Source: the human T2T-CHM13v2.0 reference genome, Homo sapiens
DNA length: 64,000 nt
Strand: one strand, 5' to 3'
Assembly: GCF_009914755.1 (NCBI RefSeq)
Contig: NC_060929.1
This document shows, piece by piece, positions 30,301-43,112 of this stretch. Position 1 is the first letter of the stretch, and each line of letters begins with the position of its first letter. The position numbers and the translations under genes were made by a program. The notes below the pieces were generated by a model, which was given only the letters and a program-made list of their open reading frames with translations, was not told where the DNA came from and did not search any database.

Positions 30301-30729
30301 TTAACTCCTGAAATGAAGGAAGGGAAAGCAATGGCCCCTGACATAAAACAGGTTGTTGGGGCTCATCCGACAAACAGACAATGGGTGGCGGAAATGGCAG
30401 TGCATTTGAAAATATTTCTCCTTGATATTTCCAAGTTACTTTGAAAATCTGATGATCACAATCTTTCCTCTGATTCTTGCAGAAGGGTGAAATTATTAAT
30501 GTCTCCTCAGCTCAGACAAATTTCCTTCCTTTGGGGTTTCCTTGGGGTTTAAAAAAATACGGCAGAAGGTGTATGCCCTGTTAGTTGGTGGGTTTCTGTT
30601 GGGTATGGTGGATATGAGGCTTTTCCCTTGAGAGAATGATGCACGCAGCATCTGCAGAATCCTCTCCTCCTTGAAGTCCCCACCTCCCACTCCTTTTTGT
30701 TTTAAATTTTAAATGAAGTTTGTGCCTAG

Positions 30730-30966
<237 letters not shown>

Positions 30967-31729
30967 TAATATCTTCTTTTACTTAAATATGCAAACTTGT
31001 ATCCAGTGAAGGCCTGGGCTGGCCACTAGGTTAAAGACCAAGGGCTCCTCAGGACAAGAGAAAACGTATTTATTGTTTGTTACCCATGAAGCTAGCAGTG
31101 CCTTCTTTTAAAATAGCTCTGAAATTTTTGTTACCTAGAAGGAAATTAGTCAAACCGGATCCACTTCCAATGGAGAGAACAGTTCATGGTAGCAGTCTCT
31201 TAAACTGAGTTTAATTCTCGACAACATAAAGTCAGGGACCCTTTTGGGATTAAAGAGGGCTCCTCAATAAACAAGAGGTGCTTTGGAGAGAATGAGTCCT
31301 CTCATGTGTGGTCCACGATGCTAATCTGTGAAGACTGCAAATCTTTGAGAAACTGTGAGGCCTATCCCTGTGTTTGGGAAGGAGTTGAGCAGCTAAGAGT
31401 CTGAATGAAGAGGCTGTTTCAGGGAGACTTCAGAACTTTCACAGAATGCACTTGCAGGCACTGGGGGTGCGGGTGGGGGAAGCTGGGAGTGCCTGATGTG
31501 CTGTGAATAAACGAAGCCCAAACACATTTATCTAAATCAATGAGTTAATGCAGATTGCTGCTGCTTTTTTTTTTTAAATCAATATTATTCTTTTAGATGC
31601 TAATTTAAAGATCCATTATGCCTGAGATGCCCAGGCACTGGTTAGAATTAATGACGTACTAGTGTTTAGCTAGAATGAAGGTGAGGAAGCAGAGGTGGAA
31701 GTCAGCCTGGGGAATGTTTGCTTCTCATG

Positions 31730-31902
31730 CTATGGGTCCAGACTGTGCACGTTAGAATTGTGTGGGGATCTTTAATAAATTCTGATGCCTGGTTACAACC
31801 ACCCGACTTTCTAATTTAATTGGTATGGAGTGTGACCCAGGCCAGGGGATTTAAAAAATTCCCCAGGTGATTTTACTGTGAAGCAAAGTTTGAGAACCAC
31901 TC
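31730..31902. mobile_element. MER5A-family hAT element
   Basis: ...ccccaggtgattttactgtg..caaagtttgagaaccact terminus. Confidence 0.75.
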
Positions 31903-31939
31903 TGCTGATGGCTTCCTTTAATTTAACAAACAGTGGAAA

Positions 31940-32005
31940 CCTGTGTGTTGGGGAAGGCAACTATCTTATTCATATGTGTCTTCAACACTCAGAATAATCC
32001 TGATA
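31940..32005. mobile_element. L2 3'-end fragment, first half (interrupted by the inverted duplication)
   Basis: gaaggcaactatcttattcatatgtgtcttcaacactcagaataatcctgata resembles the L2 3' consensus; it continues at ~32886-32925 (tagttgatgcttaatagatatctgttgaattaattaatg). Confidence 0.6.
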
Positions 32006-32014
32006 ATTCTAAAA

Positions 32015-32809
32015 TTTATTCTCCTCAGAATGTGTATCTGTATTTCTTGATCTAACTGAATAACTGAAGGTCCTAACACTATTTGGTCTTATGTAACAAG
32101 GTTAGGAACATAAATACCCTCCTCTAGAATCCACTAGTAAAATACCCAAAAAGCTTCTGTTTTATGATGAGATAGAGGAGGAAGAGGTATAAATGATTAA
32201 AAATGATTTAAACCAAACTATGTAACAGGCTTTATATTTCATGCTTCACATATATTACTTTATTTCACCCTCTCAAAAATCCTCTAAATTACACATTAGG
32301 CCTGCCATGTTATAAAAGGATAAACTGAGGCTCAGAAAGCTGAAACGATGTGCCTAAGGCTACATGCCCACATCTCTCTGGTCAAAAGCCAAAGCTCCTT
32401 CTCCTGCAGCAAATCTCAAAGTCTATAGAAGAGTCCTTGTGTGGGATTTGCTGACATCACATGGGCTTCACCCCTCTGCCCTCATCACTAAGTTCTCTTC
32501 ACATGGTACTGCTTTCCATATTTGAACATAACTTTAAATTCTTCTTTGATAACTTTTCAACAGCCATACACATAGGTGGAAAGCATCATTGGTTTTATGA
32601 AAATCCCTGAGGCTAAATTTGGCCCTTAGAGCAAATTGAAAAAGAGATGAAGCCCCTTTCTATGTCTCTGAGGTGGAAATCTATGGGAAGAAACCAGCAT
32701 AATCTGGCCCAAATCACAAGGAAAACAAGGCATTTCTAACACAGCTACCCGGACAAGAAGAACCTGGGTAAAAAGACTTATGCCAAAACCATAATAATCA
32801 TATGAGTTC
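32015..32809 (+). repeat. Long inverted repeat, left arm (~795 bp)
   Basis: Reverse complement of 33930-34725. Checked 60-bp blocks have about 1-9 differences, with a ~70 bp perfect stretch (tctcctgcagcaaatctc...cacatgggctt). Confidence 0.97.
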
Positions 32810-33929
32810 TCTAATCCTAATATTAGGATTATTCTGAGTGTTGAAAACACAATGATTAGTGTGTCTTCAACTAATAATCATTTATTAGTTGATGCTTAAT
32901 AGATATCTGTTGAATTAATTAATGTATAACACTAGGGATACGTCTTAAGGTTTCTATTTTATTGATGAGGGAATTGAAGCTCAGACAGTTGAAACAGCTT
33001 CCTCCAGGCACCATTGCTGAGAAGTGGGATGGCTCAGATTCATATCTGTTCCTGCCTGGCTCTAAAGACCATACTCACTACCACGGCATTAGCCTGTTCT
33101 TTATACTGTTTCTTTAGTCCCTGCTGGGGATGGATGTCTTCCTATGGATTAGTTGGGACTGCAGTCTTCTAGTTTTTATTTTTCCCTTACCCCCTCCTGG
33201 TTAAAAAGCAAACAAACAAAAAATGTATTCCTCATATTCCTAACCCCTTCATCATTCTCTGACTAAGGGGATAACAGGAGCAGGGGACAGCATGAGGAGA
33301 TGCGGCAGGAGCCCCAGCCAGCCACTGCATCTGTATCACACTGGAAGCAACTGAGCTTCTAGTGAGTAGCCACACAGTGTTGGGATATCTGGAGAGAGCC
33401 AAGGATGACCAATTGCCATGAGAGAGGCTATAGGGTTGAATCAGGTGTGAAATCAGCTCCAAGGAAGCTGAAGTGTGAAAGAGCAGAAATGATGAGCCAA
33501 TAGATAAAGCCAGTTTCTCATCCCAGAGGAGAAAGGCGCTGATGCCCCAAAGAAGTTGAGGTGCCATGGAGAGAAGAATGGAAGAGGGAATAGGTAATTT
33601 TGGAGCTACTCTTTCTAATTTCAGCACCTGTTTCCCTACGATGGGCTACACATATATTTGGGGAAGGAACAAAGGGAGAGAGACAGTAAGAAGGCAGGGA
33701 AAGAAAGAAGGAGAAAAAAAGGAAGCAAAGAGGAACAAGTGAGCATTTGCCGCTCTCAAGACACCTGGTCAATAGGAATGCCCTTCTTTATCAGCTGCAT
33801 GACCTTACATTGGTCACTTAACTTCTCAATGCCTCAGTTTCCTCATCTATAAGATTTCATTGTGTGGGTGAGGATCAAATAAACATTGTCTGCAAAAGAA
33901 CAAATTATAAAATGCTATGCAAATGCAGT

Positions 33930-34725
33930 GAACTAATATGATTATTATGGTTTTGGCATAAGTCTTTTTACCCAGGTGGTTCTTGTCTGGGTAGCTGTGT
34001 TAGAAATACCTTGCTTTCCTTATAATTTGGGCCAGGTTTGTTGGTTTGTTCTCATAGATTTCCACTCCAGAGACATAGAAAGGGGCTTCATCTCTTTTTC
34101 AATTTGCTCTAAGGGTCAAATTTAGCCTCAGGGATTTTCATAAAACCAATGATGCTTTCCACCTATTTACATAGCTATTGAAAAGTTATCGAAGAAGAAT
34201 TTAAAGTTACATTCTAATATGGAGAGCAGTACCATATGAAGAGAACTTAATGATGAGGGCAGAGGTGTCAAGCCCATGTGATGTCAGCAAATCCCACACA
34301 AGGACTCTTCTATAGACTTTGAGATTTGCTGCAGGAGAGGGAGCTTTGGCTTTTGACCAGAGAGATGTGGACATGTAGCCTTAGGCACATCGTTTCAGCT
34401 TTCTCGGCCTCAGTTTATCCTCTGTAACATGGAAGGCCAAATGTGTAATTTAGGGGATTATTGAGGGGGTGAAATAAAGTAATATATGTGAAACCTGAAG
34501 TATAAAGCCTGTTACATAGTTTGGTTTAAATCATTTTTTAATCATTTATACCTCTTCCTCCTTTACTTCATCATAAAACAGAAGCTTTTTGGGTATTTTA
34601 CTAGTGAGGATTCAGAAGGCGGGCATTTGTGTTCCTAATTTTGTTACACAAGACTAAATAGTGTTAGGATGTTCAGTTATTCAGTTAGATCAAGAAATAT
34701 AAATATACATTCTTAAGAGAATAAA
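33930..34725 (-). repeat. Long inverted repeat, right arm (~795 bp)
   Basis: Reverse complement of 32015-32809; contiguous with a MIR at ~33780-33950. Confidence 0.97.
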
Positions 34726-35852
34726 CCCACAAGAAGTGACTGTATGAAAACATGCATGGGAAAGTTTCAGCTAGTGAAATAGTACGAGGTGACCGGAGTC
34801 TTGATTCTGAGCCTGCATGGGGTGTGAGCTATTAGTAACATCAGCCATAAGTGCTGGCTGGGTGCAGAGGATATGAATGCCCGTGGTTGATGTTCCTGGT
34901 TCAAACTTTTCACATCCAGCTGGGTAGCGGCTTATGTTGGAAACCCTCTTTTGTGACCAATTTAATTGTGAGTAGAGCAGATCTGGTTCAAATCTCAGCT
35001 GTGTCCACTGTTAACTCTGAAACCTAAGCAAGTTATTGCCCATCTCTAATGCTCACCCAGCTTTTGTGAGTTGCTTTCTGTGGTTTTTCTTATTGTTCTG
35101 AGTCGGCGTGGCAGCAGCTCACCAAGACCACGGAGAATTGAAAGCCAGTAGTTCAGAGGAAAGGAGCAATAAAAACACTTTCTGCTGATCAGGTACCTAC
35201 CATGTTCCAGACATGGAACTGGGATCTTCATATACAGTGTTTTAAATCCCACCAGAGATCTTCAAGGAACCACTATCCTCAGTGTTCATAGGAGGCTCAT
35301 AAAGTTAAATAGTTCATCCCAAATTACATGTATTCATAGTGCTGGAGCTAGGATTTGAATCCATCCAGGTCATCTGCCTCCAAAGCACTATTCTCTATGC
35401 CACAGGTAAGGTTTAGGCCAGGGATTCCCATGTGTTTTCAACAATGGACCACATGCTCAGAAGTCCTTGTGTGTGCCAGCCCTGTGAGCGTGGTTGATAA
35501 AACTGATGGCAGATTCAGAGGGTCAACACCACACACATGTAAATTAGATAGAGCTCAAAAGTTAGTAAAAGACATATGGCGATGTTGTGCAGGCCAATTT
35601 GCCCCACTCTCCTTACGATCCATGGTATTTCATAATGCTCCAATTTGATGGCACAAGTGGAATTAAATGAACAGCTTGTATTGAATGACATGCTCTCTTG
35701 GCCACTGTGAATGCCACTTATGCTAATGAAGCCCCTGGAGTGTCCAGGAGGGCAGGGGACTCTGCCATTTATATCCCCAATGTCTGGAACAATGGCTGCC
35801 ACACAGAAAGTGCTCAAATATCTACTGTCTGAATGAATGAATGAATGAATAT

Positions 35853-36180
35853 GGCTGGGTGCAATGGTGCATGCCTGTAATCCCAGCACTTTAGGAGGCT
35901 GAGGTGAGAGGATCTCTCAAGCCTAGGAGTTCAAGACCAGGCTGGGGAACATAGTGAGACCCTGTCTCGACAAAAAATTAAAAAAAAAAAAATTAGCTAG
36001 GCATGGGGGCCTGCCCATGCCTAGTGGTGTATGCTTGTGGTCACAGCTACTCAGGAAGCTGAGGCAGGAAGATCACTTGAGCCTAGGGGATCAAGGCTGC
36101 AGTGAGCTGTGATAATGCCACTGCATTTCAGCTTGGGTGACAAAGCAAGACCCTGTCTCTTAAAATAAATAAATAAATAC
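35853..36180 (+). mobile_element. Alu (AluJ-like) at an L2 (GAAT)n tail
   Basis: Alu consensus; carries an internal fold-back insertion at 35997-36024. Confidence 0.9.
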
Positions 36181-36502
<322 letters not shown>

Positions 36503-36597
36503 TCAGTGTTTATTAAGTGTCAAGTGTTGAGCTAAAAGCTTTACATATATTGTTAGCTCAATTGATCTTTGTAACAACAACCTTATAAGACAAATAG

Positions 36598-36843
36598 TCT
36601 TTTTAAGTTCCATGACATACCTGCACAGAATGTGCAGGTTTGTTACATAGATATACATGTGCCATGGTGGTTTGCTGCACCTATCAACCTGTCATCTAGG
36701 TTTTAAGCCCTGCGTGCATCAGCTATTTGTCCCGATGTTCTCCCTGCCCTCACCCCCCCCCACCCCCTGACAGCTCCCCTGTGTGTTGTTCCCCACCCTG
36801 TGTTCTTATTCTTGCTCTCCCACTTATGAGCGAGAACATTTGG
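36598..36843 (-). mobile_element. L1PA 3'UTR fragment inside a MIR
   Basis: gtgcaggtttgttacatag..atacatgtgccatggtggtttgctgcacctatcaacc. Confidence 0.85.
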
Positions 36844-38304
36844 TATAAAGCGGAGATAAAGACTATATGCAAAGACAAATGGGCTTTATCTCTGCTTTCC
36901 AAATGAGGAAAATGAGGCTTAAAGAGGTTAAGTAACTTACCTTGGCTGAAAATTAGTATATCTTGGATTTAAATTTTGGCTGTGTAAGTCCAGAGTTTGA
37001 GTTCTTAATCACCACCAAACAATAGCGCAATTTCATTAAGACTAAAGTCTTCTGGCAAAACCCCAGGTGGATAAGACTCAGGGGACCCCATAAAGTTGAG
37101 TTACAGAAAGGATGGAAACACACATATTCTGGAACCTGTTGGTTCCTTTCCCTTCACTTTGCCTGAGAGATTAGTGATGAGACTGAATGTCCTGAGAGAG
37201 CTGCATTTATTTTCCTCGGGGACAACTCAGCATCTCAAAGGAAACTGCCTTCTTATGGTCATGCTATGGGGAATTCCTGTGACATCGTTTTTCCAGTTTC
37301 TATGGACCTTGATCATCCACTGCTTGGCTAAAATAAAAGGATTAAAAATTGAGGGGAATAGTACTTGTTTTGAATGCCTGTGGCTCTTGAATGAGGAAGC
37401 TATCTGGTAGCATTCTTGCATAACTGTGTATCATTTCAAGACATGTTCATTTTGGCCAGAAGTCTGAGTGTACTGGCACCAACACTGGTCACTCTGTTTG
37501 AAAGAGAGAGAAAGGGAGGAGAGAGAGAGAGAAAGAGTGAAAGAGAGAACAGGAAAGCCTGAAAGCACTCAGCAGACAAGTCCCTCTGAGTTTGGAGGCA
37601 TCCTAGTCTGGTTTTGATTTTTGTTGTTATGTTTAAACACTTGCCGTTTTCTAATTCTGGTGAAGTCCATCTAGATAGCAATGATCTCAAGTGTCCTCCC
37701 TTGATTTACCTCTGGGACAGTAAAACCACTCTTGGTTGCTTTGGGTTTGATTCTCTTCTTGAGGGATGTACCTGGCCTTTGGCAGAGGGGTTCAGAGTGG
37801 ACCCTTAATCTAGGAAATTCACTCAGTGCCACATGATCACCTAATTAGCAAGATAGCATTTTCCTGTTGGCCATTCTTGCAACCCCCTATAGATGTGGTA
37901 ATGAGGATCCTTAACTTAAGGAATGTCAGAAGAACTGCACTTTATTTTCAAAAACTATTCTTACAAAGGGTGGGGGAAGCTCTTTTTCCACTTCCTCCTC
38001 CAAATTAGCCTTCTCGCCCCTGCTGAATCCTCCCCACTTGCCGAGATAGAATGCCTTTCCTACAGCATGACAGGCAGTAGTGGACGTACTGGATAACAGC
38101 CAGCAGGACAGAGCTGGGTACACATCCTTGCTTTGCTTCTCATTAGCTACATGGCTTCTGGCAAGTTATTTAACTTCTTCTCCATGCCATAGTTTTCACA
38201 TTGGTAAAATGGGATTAACATTTTCCACTCATAGAGTAGTTGAAAGAATTAAATGAGATCATGCATGTAAAGTATTTGGCATGTAAACAGTTTCCAATAA
38301 TGGT

Positions 38305-38315
38305 TCCTATTTTTT

Positions 38316-38359
<44 letters not shown>

Positions 38360-38651
38360 TTTTTGAGACAATGTTTCTGTCTGTCACCCTGGCTGGAGTG
38401 CAGTGGCAAAAGACAGAACACTGTAGCCTCTAGCTCCTGTGTTGAAGCAATCCTCTTGCCTCAGCCTCCTGAGTAGCTGGGATCACAGGCCTGTGCCACC
38501 ATGCCTGGGTATTTTTTTTACATATATATATTTTGTAGAGATTAAGTCTTGCCATGTTGCTTAGGCTGGTCTTGAAACCCTGGGCTCAAGTGATCAATCC
38601 CTTGGCCTCCTGAAGTGCTGGGATTATAGGCATGGGCAACCATGCCCAGCC
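38305..38651 (-). mobile_element. Alu (AluJ-like) with (TTTA)n tail
   Basis: Antisense Alu; degenerate TSD atggttcctatt/atgattcccact. Confidence 0.9.
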
Positions 38652-38868
38652 ATGATTCCCACTTAAAAACCCTATAATTCATAATCGTATTATATGAGTA
38701 TGTGTGTATATGCATCACATGTATGTTTATGTGTATAGGTATATATATGTATGTGTGTTTTAAGTATTATACACAATATAGGAATATAGACTATGGAATG
38801 AAAGTAATAATGATACAATATTATTTTATGAAGAATGGTAGTAATAATGAGAGTAAAAATAATAGAAC

Positions 38869-39330
<462 letters not shown>

Positions 39331-39816
39331 TCAGGGCAAGACCATAGACAGAAGTCCTCTGACAAATGCTGACCGTGACAACAGTCTTGGCAAACTTCAG
39401 TAGGCAGAGATGGGCTGTCCCCATTGGGAAAAAGAACCACAGGCCTGCCACTTCTCTGTGAGGCCGCCTGGACTAGATGCAAATTTAATACTCCCCTGTC
39501 ATGTTGCTAAAACCCTCTGAGACTCAGGTGACAGCTACTTGCTTCATTTGACTGTATGGCCTACCTGGAGTGGGAGGCTGGGAAGATGGGCTTCTTCTGA
39601 GCAGCCCCTCCCGCAGCCTGTGCAGCTGCCTGCTAATAGCTAAAGCATGTAAGTGTGCGGGCTGTGGAGACTCCTGATAACTGCGGTTCCATCGTGTCCC
39701 TCCAAAGTCCTGGAATGACATGCAGCTCTTGAAAGCCAGCAACTCGCAGCAGACACTGAAGTCCTGCCTTTCCCCACAGGGGTTTGTTTCTGTGCATGTT
39801 TCTCACTTTGGCCTTA

Positions 39817-40362
<546 letters not shown>

Positions 40363-40413
40363 CTAGCCTCTTTTCAGGGCACATGCCTCAGTATATGGTA
40401 TCCCTTTAGACTT

Positions 40414-40650
40414 CAGAGGTTGTAAATTAGTAGCCTCTGGGAGAAATGCAGCCTGCATTTGTGTTTGATTTGTCTAGCAAATCAAAGCGTTAAATCAAAG
40501 TGTTAAAACAATTGATAGGAATAACTGAGTCTTTAGGGAGAGAATGGAATCCACACACCTCATCACTTCCCACTGCCCTGTCCTCATTCCATATCACTTC
40601 TTTCTGTTGCTTGTCTAGCCCTGCAGTCATCTGATTTTGCTACATCTGCT
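40414..40650. mobile_element. hAT-Charlie MER (MER102/MER58-like)
   Basis: Termini cagaggttgtaaat...ttttgctacatctg are roughly inverted. Confidence 0.5.
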
Positions 40651-40929
40651 TGATGTTTCCTGATAAAGATGGTCCTTGACCAACTAGGTTGGAATGTACT
40701 GGATACTGTGACTGCCTGGAGGAATGTCATAATGCTTCTTAGCATATTAAAATTATGAAAAGTTCTATAGTTAAAAAAAAACTCACTGGTTTATCTTTGC
40801 TTAAGCCAATGCTTTCCAAAATTCTTTGATTGCGAACCCTTTTCCCCTACAGAATACCTAGCACCATCCTATGGGACAAGAGGCTCCAATAGAACATAGT
40901 TTCAGAGACAATGGCTTTGGAATGTTGTT

Positions 40930-41900
40930 TTATCTTATAATCTACATTTAAAAGAATAAAGAATAAATCTCTAGATACAAAATCCAATAACCATAAAGTA
41001 AAAGTCTGACAAATATGACAGCCTGCAAATTAAAATCTTTCTATGCAATGGAACAACAGGATAAGTGGGAGAAAATTCTTGTAAAATATGTTACTGTAAA
41101 AGGGTTACTATTAATGATGCATGAAAAATTTTAAAAACCAATAAGAAAAAAATACCCAAAATAAGAATAGAAAAAGGATATGAACATGCAATTTAGTAAA
41201 TATAGATGTTCAATAAATATGGAAAAGATGCTCAACCATACTAGCCACCAAAAAGTTGCAAATTACACATCAGATCAACAAAAATCTACAAGATTGTATG
41301 TCCAATGGTAGCAAGGTTATGGGGAAATGGTCAATTAAAGGAAATTGGTTACTGTATCTTCCAAGGTAATTGACAATCTCTCCTAAAATGTATATGTCTA
41401 TATGTTTTCATGCACTAATTCTTCTTTGAACAATCTATCCTACAAGGATCTTTACAGATATACAAACAGTATTTTTTTTACCACGTATTTATAATAAAAA
41501 TTGACAATAGCATGGAGCCTATGATCAGGGGTGGGCTGAAGAAGGTATAATGTACCCATTTGAGCAGTGCTGGGCAGTGGTTAGAAATGAAAAGAATCCA
41601 CTCTATGAGAAGGCAGGATGCCACTGGTGTGCAGTTAACTACAAAAAGCAAGTTGCAGACATGTATATTTACATACACACACATGCACATGTAGGTTCAT
41701 GCATAGAAAGCAGTCTGGAAGGAAATTCATCACAATGTTAACTAACAGTGGTCCTCCCCTCTCTGGGGAGGAGAGATTGGGACCCAGAGGAGGATGCGAT
41801 ATAGGACTTTGGAAACAATTTTCACCCTCATGCCTTATCTGGTATGAATGTTTTTACATCAAACATAGAGTATTGACTTTTTAAAATTTAAAAATTATAA
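40930..41900 (+). mobile_element. Old L1M (L1ME-like) 3' region, sense
   Basis: A-rich, with L1 motifs (aaaagatgctcaacc, gcaaggttatggggaaat). Confidence 0.65.
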
Positions 41901-43112
41901 ACAAGATTAAAAAAGGGATGAAGGCATAGAGAGAGAGAGGGTTGCTATTTGAGTAAGGTGACCATGTAGCTTAAGGGTTACGAGAAATGGCTCTAAGTGC
42001 AGCCTGCCTGAATTTGAATCCTGGCTCTCCACTTGCTAACTTTTCAACCCCAGGCTAGTTATTTAATTGTGATGCACCAGAGATTCCTTATTTATGCAAA
42101 TAATGTTTCCCTTGCAGGGTTGTAACTAATAAGCTAATCTATTAGCAGTCTTTGGTACAGCTTCTGCCCTGTTGTAAATTCTTAGAGAATAATCATAATC
42201 ATTATTTATGTTAAGAATCTCAGTTGTATATGGCTAGGAGGAAGATTTTCTTTAGGAAAGTAATTTTCACGATTTTTTACTTGAGTCTGATTGTTAAAGG
42301 GTGATACATGTTAGTAACAGAACACCTAAAATATACAGAAAAATAAATAAAAAATGCATACTTCCATTAGACCCTTACACATTATTTTCCATTCATGTGA
42401 CTTACAGTTCTTTCTACTGAAACTGTAGTCTGCCCTGCTGCTTAGCAAGTGGTGTTGCTATGCAGGGGGTGAGTGTGGCTCCTATCTCTGGATGCATCAG
42501 TTACTTTAAGAGAGGAAGCAATCCACTACAATGCTCAGCTTTCCCAACCCAGCTAGTGGACCAAAACATACCCACTATTATTCACAAAGTGGCCAGGGAG
42601 AGGAAATATGAATAACTTGTCACCAGCAAAGCAATTCAAGTACACCATCTTCCATTAATAATATGTCACCATTTATTGAGCACTAAAATAGGCCTGGTGC
42701 TCTGTTGGATGCCTCACATATATTATTTTTAATCTTCGCAATCCTTCAGAATACATATAACTTTGTCTATTTCACAGATAAGTAAATGTCTGAGAGGTTA
42801 AGTGTTTTGTCCAAAGCCTCATGGCTAATAAGGTGTGGAAACAGAATTTGCAGATCTATAGAACTACAAGGTCTGTGGTCATTCTAGTCTATGTTATTGC
42901 CTCCTTGAAGACAGGAGTTGTGACTTCACTTTTGTATACAAAGAAGTCCGTGCTTATGTTTTGATGTCCATACAGAGGCTTCCATCAATATTGTAATGTC
43001 CAGGATGCAGAATCATTCTCCTCTGATCTGTGTCATGCTGCAAAGTACCCTCTTTGCCAGCACAGACTTGTTGATGTGAGGATCACTTATATGTATTTTA
43101 CATTCCACCTAG

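What the first reader, a model, noticed from the sequence alone, without database searches (positions are those of the whole stretch)
32015..34725. ~0.8 kb non-Alu inverted duplication in a DOCK2 intron: predicted long dsRNA stem and invertible spacer
Seen: 32015-32809 is the reverse complement of 33930-34725, about 90% identical by eye, with a ~1.12 kb spacer. The arms are mostly unique sequence and carry only a MIR fragment, so two independent transposon insertions do not explain them. The repeat begins ~1.1 kb after an exon with a non-consensus donor (CAG|gttggt). Established: long intramolecular duplexes are ADAR substrates and can engage PKR/MDA5, and inverted repeats support inversion by NAHR. 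Inference: in an immune-cell pre-mRNA this would fold into a stem more than twice as long as an Alu pair. It could be hyper-edited, give small RNAs or modulate splicing of the nearby exon, and the spacer could be a polymorphic inversion.
Basis: partly seen in the sequence, partly recalled or inferred. Interest (0 to 1): 0.8.

Follow-up and report, generated by a model that had tools for sequence, protein, structure and literature searches.

The report
Old local inverted duplication in DOCK2 intron
A 0.8-kb piece of a DOCK2 intron was copied in reverse 1.1 kb upstream tens of millions of years ago, so the pre-mRNA can fold into a long hairpin, but nothing seen here shows it is more than a decaying relic.

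Summary
Window 32015-32812 is the reverse complement of 33927-34725: 732 of 796 aligned bases are identical (92.0%), with 5 gap columns and a 1114-nt spacer.

In the whole T2T genome each arm occurs only at these two places, apart from one 50-nt SINE-like fragment. It is therefore a local duplication and not a transposon pair.

Only the left arm has junction scars. These are a 38/39-nt inverted copy of its own left flank and a 12-nt direct repeat, both absent elsewhere. The left arm is probably a templated, inverted insertion made by strand-switching repair or replication.

Arm divergence (K2P 0.086) suggests an age of about 30-50 My, using recalled substitution rates. Mismatches are randomly spread, and transitions show no bias towards keeping RNA pairs (23 G:U against 22 A:C).

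In silico the sense RNA forms a duplex of about 750 bp. Nuclear ADAR editing is plausible but could not be tested here. The duplex misses the ">96% paired" criterion and lies wholly inside one intron.

Effects on splicing, small RNAs and inversion polymorphism remain untested. No paper on this repeat was found. It is a real, ordinary member of a known class.

The parts
32015..32812 (+). Left arm of the inverted duplication (798 nt). It is probably the derived, inserted copy.
   Evidence: reverse complement of 33927-34725, 732 of 796 aligned bases identical; only this arm has flank repeats.
33927..34725 (+). Right arm (799 nt). It is probably the source copy.
   Evidence: no direct or inverted repeat in its 80-nt flanks (shuffle p 0.7-0.9).
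32813..33926 (+). Spacer, which forms the loop of the predicted hairpin (1114 nt). It is unique sequence with two short SINE-like patches and a purine-rich tract.
   Evidence: a full-length match only to itself, plus 25 short dispersed matches at query 126-187, 849-926 and 976-1043; its two halves are not complementary beyond 25 nt.
31967..32005 (+). Left copy of a 38/39-nt inverted repeat that brackets the left arm.
   Evidence: score 27.5, reached by 0 of 300 shuffles; its 31-nt core occurs only twice in the window and in the whole genome, both at this locus.
32821..32858 (-). Right, inverted copy of the 31967-32005 flank. It lies 8 nt after the left arm.
32812..32831 (.). 20-nt perfect palindrome at the inner junction of the left arm.
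   Evidence: Read directly from the sequence.
31975..31986 (+). 12-nt direct repeat, first copy. The second copy is at 32860-32871.
   Evidence: 12 of 12 identical, reached by 0 of 300 shuffles.
32860..32871 (+). 12-nt direct repeat, second copy.
32310..32359 (+). The only part of the arm with a match elsewhere in the genome.
   Evidence: query 296-345 matches chromosome 7 at 84% over 50 nt.
30792..30900 (+). Upstream DOCK2 coding exon with donor CAG|GTTGGT.
   Evidence: Hub annotation.

Best explanation
This is a local, non-transposon inverted duplication inside one DOCK2 intron. An intronic segment of about 0.8 kb (now 33927-34725) was copied in reverse orientation to a site 1.1 kb upstream (now 32015-32812). 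The event also left an inverted 38-nt copy of the insertion site's own left flank, a 20-nt palindrome and a 12-nt direct repeat. This points to strand-switching replication or repair, of the fold-back / FoSTeS-MMBIR templated-insertion kind, and not to transposition. The arm divergence dates the event to roughly 30-50 million years ago, in the anthropoid or catarrhine stem. Since then the arms have drifted apart as neutral sequence would. Because both arms are transcribed on the sense strand within one intron, the nascent DOCK2 pre-mRNA can fold into an imperfect hairpin of about 750 bp with a 1.1-kb loop. This hairpin is most likely bound and promiscuously edited by nuclear ADAR1 in blood cells and then degraded with the intron, without a specific role. 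Shown here: the repeat, its uniqueness in the genome, the junction scars, the mismatch statistics and the predicted fold. Inferred: the mechanism of origin, the age, the editing and the lack of function.
For: Structure: (798/799-nt arms, 92.0% identity, 1114-nt spacer). Not a transposon family: the whole arm and two sub-segments each find only the two arms in the 3.1-Gb genome, even at E<=1, plus one 50-nt fragment. Junction scars lie at the left arm only: inverted repeat 31967-32005/32821-32858 and direct repeat 31975-31986/32860-32871, each reached by 0 of 300 shuffles, whereas the right-arm flanks give p 0.7-0.9. The 31-nt core is found nowhere else in the genome. Neutral decay: 45 transitions and 19 transversions, K2P 0.086; longest identical run 69 nt, permutation p=0.099; dispersion of differences p=0.21. 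Transitions that would keep a G:U pair in the sense RNA number 23, against 22 that give A:C, so there is no bias towards keeping the helix. Fold: cofolding the arms gives -1256.5 kcal/mol with 751 inter-arm pairs. The MFE of the whole 2711 nt is -1580.6 kcal/mol with 747 arm-arm pairs. No Rfam family matches inside the repeat at E<=1. The longest open frame in the spacer has no Pfam match. Context from papers (passages read): most ADAR activity falls on intron-intron pairs that never reach the cytoplasm (PMC7006430). About 1 million predicted human dsRNAs exceed 300 bp (PMC11838218).
Against: No outgroup genome was available, so the derived arm, the empty site, the age and the neutrality are all inferred from a single haplotype. 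The age rests on substitution rates recalled from memory, and gene conversion would make it an underestimate. No RNA data were available, so folding in vivo and editing are unverified. The strand-switching model does not account cleanly for every junction base: 9 nt (32006-32014) and 8 nt (32813-32820) of filler are unassigned, and the 12-nt direct repeat could be read as a target-site-like duplication. Survival of a 0.8-kb stem for tens of millions of years in an expressed gene could also be read as tolerance or weak constraint. Two sequences cannot exclude that.
Confidence: 0.7

Rival explanations
1. The hairpin is a functional RNA element. As a long nuclear dsRNA it would tune DOCK2 pre-mRNA processing, for example use of the weak upstream donor or intron removal kinetics, or it would yield small RNAs or act as an ADAR or dsRNA-binding-protein platform in immune cells.
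For: The predicted stem is very stable and long: 747-751 pairs and uninterrupted helices of up to 101 bp when G:U is counted. It starts 1114 nt after an exon whose donor departs from consensus at +3 and +4. It has persisted at 92% identity.
Against: Both arms lie in the same intron, so no exon is looped out or bracketed. The donor matches as many consensus positions as a neighbouring constitutive donor (7 of 9). Transitions show no bias towards pair-preserving changes (23 against 22), and differences are randomly spread. There is no Rfam match. No paper links DOCK2 introns to dsRNA or editing. The one reported DOCK2 editing site is in the ORF (PMC8728536, passages).
Confidence: 0.08
2. The arms act as substrates for non-allelic homologous recombination, so the 1.1-kb spacer is a polymorphic or recurrently flipping inversion in humans or apes. 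This is compatible with the origin given above.
For: Published human NAHR inversions use >90% identical inverted repeats from 654 bp upward (PMC6748972, passage). One of them, HsInv0061, has a 1674-bp segment with 654/656-bp repeats (supplement row). Here the repeats are 798 nt at 92% around 1114 nt.
Against: The longest perfectly identical tract is only 69 nt, far below the few hundred bp usually cited for efficient homologous exchange (recalled). No conversion-like tract is detectable. DOCK2 appears neither in that paper's main text nor in the 12 of its 18 supplementary files that were searched. A search for DOCK2 with 'polymorphic inversion' and 'inverted repeats' found 0 papers. Only one haplotype was seen here.
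Confidence: 0.1
3. The arms are two independent insertions, in opposite orientation, of one low-copy or ancient transposable element.
For: The left arm is bracketed by a 38-nt inverted repeat and a 12-nt direct repeat, which superficially resemble terminal inverted repeats and a target-site duplication. The arms contain a SINE-like fragment.
Against: No third copy of the arm, of its sub-segments or of the 31-nt flank core exists in the genome. The right arm lacks any such termini. The homology between the arms stops inside the bracketing repeats, so those repeats are not part of the duplicated unit.
Confidence: 0.02
4. The repeat is an assembly artefact, a fold-back chimera in the assembly.
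For: None beyond the palindromic layout.
Against: The arms differ at 64 substitutions and 5 indel columns. A chimeric read or assembly fold-back would give near-identical arms and no 1.1-kb unique spacer.
Confidence: 0.01

Closest known systems
Long intronic inverted duplicated sequences that form edited dsRNA, for example the KLHDC1 intron structure described in PMC7006430 (passages read)
   Same: Two inverted copies lie within one intron of a protein-coding gene, separated by about a kilobase, and are predicted to form a duplex of several hundred bp. Such a duplex is expected to be a nuclear ADAR substrate.
   Different: That catalogue lists pairs of >300 bp and >96% identity. This pair is 92% identical and is not in its Table S8 (0 DOCK2 entries, and none of the 11 chr5 rows lies near the gene's recalled hg19 range). 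Editing has been shown for KLHDC1 but not for this locus.
Inverted Alu pairs, the usual source of human intramolecular dsRNA
   Same: The principle is the same: inverted copies in one transcript pair and are edited. The same intron also holds inverted Alu pairs.
   Different: The arms are not a dispersed repeat. They are 2.7 times the length of an Alu and pair better (92% against 71-85% for the Alu pairs in this window). They can pair only with each other, not with thousands of partners.
Small human inversions flanked by short inverted repeats, for example HsInv0061 in PMC6748972
   Same: The architecture is similar: sub-kilobase inverted repeats of >90% identity around a segment of 1-2 kb.
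   Different: HsInv0061 is a genotyped polymorphism. Here only one orientation has been seen, in one haplotype. The identity of the HsInv0061 repeats beyond '>90%' was not seen.
Templated inverted insertions and complex breakpoints attributed to FoSTeS/MMBIR (named in PMC6748972, passage; mechanism details recalled)
   Same: An inverted copy of nearby sequence is inserted together with a second short inverted patch from the insertion site itself, plus short filler.
   Different: This event is ancient and fixed. Its junctions have since mutated, so microhomologies cannot be read, and no empty-site allele was available.

Membership tests
Pair of transposable-element insertions | Further dispersed copies of the same sequence in the genome | tested here: not met
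   The whole arm and two sub-segments find only the two arms, at E<=0.001 and E<=1. The one extra hit is a 50-nt fragment. The tool warns that very common words are skipped and that counts are lower bounds.
Pair of transposable-element insertions | Each copy has its own termini and target-site duplication | tested here: not met
   Only the left arm has flank repeats, and the right arm has none. The flank repeat is unique to this locus.
Local inverted (segmental) duplication / templated insertion | Exactly two copies, close together, in opposite orientation, with sharp ends in otherwise unique sequence | tested here: met
Local inverted (segmental) duplication / templated insertion | An ancestral empty site in an outgroup | not testable with these tools
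   No primate or other mammalian genome is held.
Intramolecular long dsRNA / ADAR editing-enriched region | Both arms lie in one transcript on the same strand | tested here: met
   Hub annotation: DOCK2 is on the + strand and the intron spans 30901-43112. One search gives the distances.
Intramolecular long dsRNA / ADAR editing-enriched region | A stable predicted duplex between the arms | tested here: met
   751 inter-arm pairs at -1256.5 kcal/mol. 747 arm-arm pairs in the full 2711-nt fold. This is in silico evidence only.
Intramolecular long dsRNA / ADAR editing-enriched region | Clustered A-to-G mismatches in RNA on both arms | not testable with these tools
   No RNA-seq data or editing database is at hand. 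The large site lists of PMC4365171 could not be read.
'Long and nearly perfect' MDA5-type dsRNA as defined in PMC7006430 and PMC11838218 | Length over 300 bp | tested here: met
   798 nt.
'Long and nearly perfect' MDA5-type dsRNA as defined in PMC7006430 and PMC11838218 | More than 96% identity or more than 96% of nucleotides paired | tested here: not met
   92.0% identity. 755 of 801 columns are pairable when G:U is counted, which is 94%.
'Long and nearly perfect' MDA5-type dsRNA as defined in PMC7006430 and PMC11838218 | Present in mature, cytoplasmic RNA | tested here: not met
   By the hub annotation both arms are intronic in the selected transcript. The other 7 RefSeq transcripts were not seen individually.
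NAHR-mediated polymorphic inversion | Inverted repeats of >90% identity and at least about 650 bp at the breakpoints | tested here: met
   798 nt at 92%. The range comes from PMC6748972.
NAHR-mediated polymorphic inversion | Both orientations observed among haplotypes | not testable with these tools
   Only one human haplotype is held.

The most novel reading that the evidence does not exclude
The hairpin is not inert. In this reading it is a constitutively hyper-edited 0.75-kb nuclear dsRNA specific to haematopoietic cells. It would influence DOCK2 pre-mRNA processing, or it would become an unusually potent self-dsRNA ligand when intron turnover or ADAR1 fails. Its arms might also still flip the 1.1-kb spacer in some human haplotypes.
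Probability: 0.07. Interest if true: 0.55.

Novelty: new member of a known kind. Interest (0 to 1): 0.25.

Why it matters
If the main reading holds, this is one more intronic inverted duplication among very many predicted human dsRNAs, and it matters mainly in two ways. It is a clean, datable example of a non-transposon templated inverted insertion whose junction scars are still readable. It is also a convenient single-partner test substrate: unlike Alu pairs, its arms can pair only with each other, so editing, J2 or crosslinking signals at this locus would be unambiguous. If it proved functional or polymorphic in orientation, it would bear on DOCK2 regulation in immune cells and on which endogenous dsRNAs ADAR1 must neutralise.

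Tried and rejected
1. Transposon-pair reading. Rejected because no third copy exists.

2. Wider or older palindrome. The spacer halves align only over 25 nt (score 15, equal to the shuffle maximum), and the outer flanks score 10, below the shuffle mean. Rejected.

3. Weak resemblance between the left arm's right flank (32835-32849) and the right arm's right flank (34737-34752). It gave p=0.02 in one of 12 flank comparisons and is not significant after correction for multiple tests. Not used.

4. Gene-conversion tracts. No signal was found.

5. Known RNA family in arms or spacer. None at E<=1. All 10 matches in 30500-36500 are Alu-derived hits at 35854-36461.

6. Coding potential. There are eight stop-to-stop frames of 60 aa or more. 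The longest (137 aa, 33232-33645, minus strand) has no Pfam match at E<=1 and lies on the pyrimidine-rich strand of a purine-rich tract.

7. Literature on this locus. Five searches found nothing about the repeat:
- 'DOCK2' + 'inverted repeat' + 'RNA editing': 0 papers.
- 'DOCK2' / 'A-to-I' / 'intron' / 'hyper-edited', at least 3 of 4 terms: 239 papers, 15 listed, and only one of those holds DOCK2.
- 'DOCK2' + 'polymorphic inversion' + 'inverted repeats': 0 papers.
- 'editing-enriched regions' / 'dsRNAome' / 'DOCK2': none of the 9 listed papers holds DOCK2.
- 'DOCK2' + 'dsRNA' + 'ADAR1' + 'intronic': 3 papers, none about this repeat judging by title and abstract.

8. Table S8 of PMC7006430 has no DOCK2 entry.

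10. The hyper-editing site lists of PMC4365171 were too large to read.

11. No lift-over to hg19 or hg38 was done, so coordinate look-ups in other papers' tables were not attempted.
Full report
**Observation**

The repeat finder on 31000-36000 returned five collinear inverted blocks that tile 32015-32812 against 33927-34725. A gapped local alignment joins them into one pair with score 655. It has 732 matches, 64 mismatches and 5 gap columns, which is 92.0% identity at aligned bases. The spacer is 32813-33926 (1114 nt). With the same scoring scheme, shuffled sequences of about 515-560 nt never scored above 15, so chance is excluded.

The repeat ends sharply:
- The outer flanks (about 515 nt each) align no better than shuffles.
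- The two halves of the spacer share only a 25-nt SINE-like match.

Across the whole 64-kb window this is the longest, best-matched and most closely spaced inverted pair. The other 7 pairs of 150 nt or more are at most 298 nt long and at most 85% complementary. By their Rfam SRP/Alu-type hits and their repetition, those are Alu pairs.

The upstream exon ends at 30900, 1114 nt before the repeat. The next exon starts 8387 nt after it, and the intron is 12,212 nt long. The donor is CAG|GTTGGT. This is a canonical GT donor matching 7 of 9 consensus positions, the same count as the donor of exon 2053-2187.

**What the arms are**

The window's own genome (3.1 Gb, 24 contigs) was searched with the left arm. 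It gave the arm itself, the right arm at 91%, and one 50-nt, 84% hit on chromosome 7 to query positions 296-345.

Two sub-segments were searched separately at E<=1, 32375-32812 and 32015-32305. Each found only the two arms.

The spacer found itself plus 25 short dispersed hits confined to three patches, at query 126-187, 849-926 and 976-1043. The search tool warns that very common words are skipped and that counts are lower bounds. Within that limit the arms are single-locus sequence, so two insertions of one transposon family do not explain them. An assembly fold-back is also excluded, because the arms differ at 69 alignment columns.

**Junctions**

I compared 80-nt flanks of each arm in direct and inverted orientation, with 300 shuffles for each comparison.

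The left arm is bracketed by two repeats:
- An inverted repeat, 31967-32005 against 32821-32858, with score 27.5, reached by 0 of 300 shuffles.
- A 12-nt exact direct repeat, 31975-31986 and 32860-32871, also reached by 0 of 300 shuffles.

The right arm's flanks show nothing (p 0.7-0.9). The 31-nt core of the bracketing repeat occurs only at these two places in the window (0 of 100 shuffles gave any match) and in the whole genome. It is therefore not a transposon terminus. Reading directly, the inner junction of the left arm is a 20-nt perfect palindrome (32812-32831).

The simplest reading is that the left arm is the derived copy. In this reading a stretch of about 0.87 kb was inserted, consisting of an inverted copy of the downstream 0.8-kb segment followed by an inverted copy of the insertion site's own left flank. 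Several strand switches in one event fit fold-back or template-switching replication and repair, the FoSTeS/MMBIR kind named for complex inversion breakpoints in PMC6748972 (passage).

This is inference. Filler of 9 nt and 8 nt is unassigned, the junctions are old, and no empty-site allele could be examined.

**Age and mode of evolution**

The arms differ by 45 transitions and 19 transversions over 796 sites. Only 2 of these are CpG-type differences, and K2P is 0.086.

I recall a substitution rate of about 1.1e-9 per site per year for the lineage to humans, from roughly 6.5% human-macaque divergence over about 29 My. That rate gives about 39 My, with sampling error of roughly plus or minus 10 My. 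The event would then fall near or after the split from New World monkeys and before the ape/Old World monkey split. The rates come from memory, and gene conversion would make the figure an underestimate.

The differences are spread as expected by chance. The longest identical run is 69 nt (permutation p=0.099), and the index of dispersion in 50-column bins is 1.09 (p=0.21).

For the sense transcript, 23 of the transitions leave a G:U wobble and 22 give an A:C mismatch. Selection to keep the helix would favour the first kind, and no such bias is seen. With only two sequences this test is weak, but nothing here argues for constraint.

**Predicted RNA**

DOCK2 is on the + strand, so both arms lie in the pre-mRNA.
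- Cofolding the arms gives -1256.5 kcal/mol with 751 inter-arm pairs and no intra-arm pairs. The arms folded alone give -178.2 and -193.1 kcal/mol.
- The MFE fold of the whole 2711 nt is -1580.6 kcal/mol and keeps 747 arm-arm pairs.
- With G:U counted, 755 of 801 columns can pair, and the longest uninterrupted helices are 101 and 99 bp.
- The arms hold 265 and 235 adenosines, of which 165 and 135 have a 5' U or A. That this is the ADAR-preferred context is recalled.

A duplex of this kind in a gene strongly expressed in blood cells (recalled) is a plausible ADAR1 substrate. No RNA data were available, so editing remains inferred.

**How it compares with what is known**

A genome-wide prediction (PMC11838218, sections and passages read) reports the following:
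- 5.13 million candidate human dsRNAs were predicted, and about 1 million are longer than 300 bp.
- 99% of them are between 30 and 1000 bp long.
- Only 2,018 are both over 300 bp and more than 96% paired, and most of those are intergenic.
- The median for edited dsRNAs is 297 bp and -410 kcal/mol.

The DOCK2 stem is long and stable by these measures. At 94% paired it misses the 'highly paired' class. It would also be filed there as 'repetitive', because it touches a SINE fragment.

PMC7006430 (abstract and passages) lists 197 human inverted duplicated sequences of >300 bp and >96% identity within RefSeq transcripts. It shows heavy editing of one of them in a KLHDC1 intron. It also states that most ADAR activity falls on intron-intron pairs that never reach the cytoplasm. 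Its Table S8 has no DOCK2 entry, as expected for a 92% pair. The cytoplasmic sensors MDA5 and PKR would therefore meet this RNA only if the intron were retained or its turnover failed. The abstract of PMC13189227, seen only in a search listing, describes cytoplasmic intronic dsRNA in DBR1 deficiency.

**Splicing, small RNAs and inversion**

The stem encloses only intronic spacer. It neither brackets nor loops out an exon, and the donor is not exceptional by consensus count. I see no structural reason to expect an effect on splicing. Small-RNA production from long nuclear hairpins in human somatic cells is generally inefficient (recalled).

Inversion by homologous exchange cannot be dismissed on size. 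PMC6748972 reports NAHR inversions with >90% identical repeats from 654 bp upward. A supplement row gives HsInv0061 as 1674 bp with 654/656-bp repeats (the ratio 0.391 in that row confirms how the columns should be read). Here the longest perfect tract is 69 nt, no conversion tract is detectable, and only one haplotype could be seen.

**Literature**

Five searches combining DOCK2 with terms for inverted repeats, editing, dsRNA or inversions found nothing on this repeat. The one reported DOCK2 editing event is in the ORF, by ADAR2 in melanoma stem cells (PMC8728536, passages; mentioned in PMC8997934). Supplements of the bioRxiv preprint are closed, and the large site lists of PMC4365171 could not be read. 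Either could contain this locus.

**Verdict**

The best-supported account is an ancient templated inverted insertion that has since drifted neutrally. It gives DOCK2 pre-mRNA a long, imperfect, intron-confined hairpin that is probably edited and discarded. It is a new instance of a well-known class. Its interest is modest unless primate alignments, editing data or haplotype orientation show otherwise.

Noticed in passing
window 33232-33645 (- strand): A 137-codon stop-to-stop open frame in the spacer. It has no Pfam match at E<=1. It lies on the pyrimidine-rich strand of a purine-rich tract (AT skew about 0.29 and GC skew about 0.26 at 33400-33799), which probably explains the lack of stop codons.
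   Followed up: yes
window 35826-36480 and 38341-40360: Clusters of Alu-like elements in both orientations lie in the same intron. They give SRP/Alu-derived Rfam hits below gathering score and several inverted pairs, for example 38419-38518 against 38997-39096. The intron therefore also carries conventional Alu-type dsRNA potential.
   Followed up: partly
window 32835-32849 and 34737-34752: A 15/16-nt direct similarity (14 identical bases, one gap) links the sequence just right of the left arm to the sequence just right of the right arm. It gave p=0.02 in one of 12 flank comparisons and is not significant after correction. If real, it would mean the duplicated unit once reached a little further out.
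   Followed up: partly
window 33661-33738: A purine-rich (GA) tract in the spacer matches many dispersed genomic sites at 76-84% (query 849-926). It is low-complexity sequence and not a specific repeat.
   Followed up: no
window 32840-32871: A small hairpin-like motif has 12-nt arms (11 of 12 complementary) around an 8-nt loop. It is formed by the end of the inverted flank copy and the 12-nt direct repeat, and it adds a further fold-back signature at the junction.
   Followed up: partly
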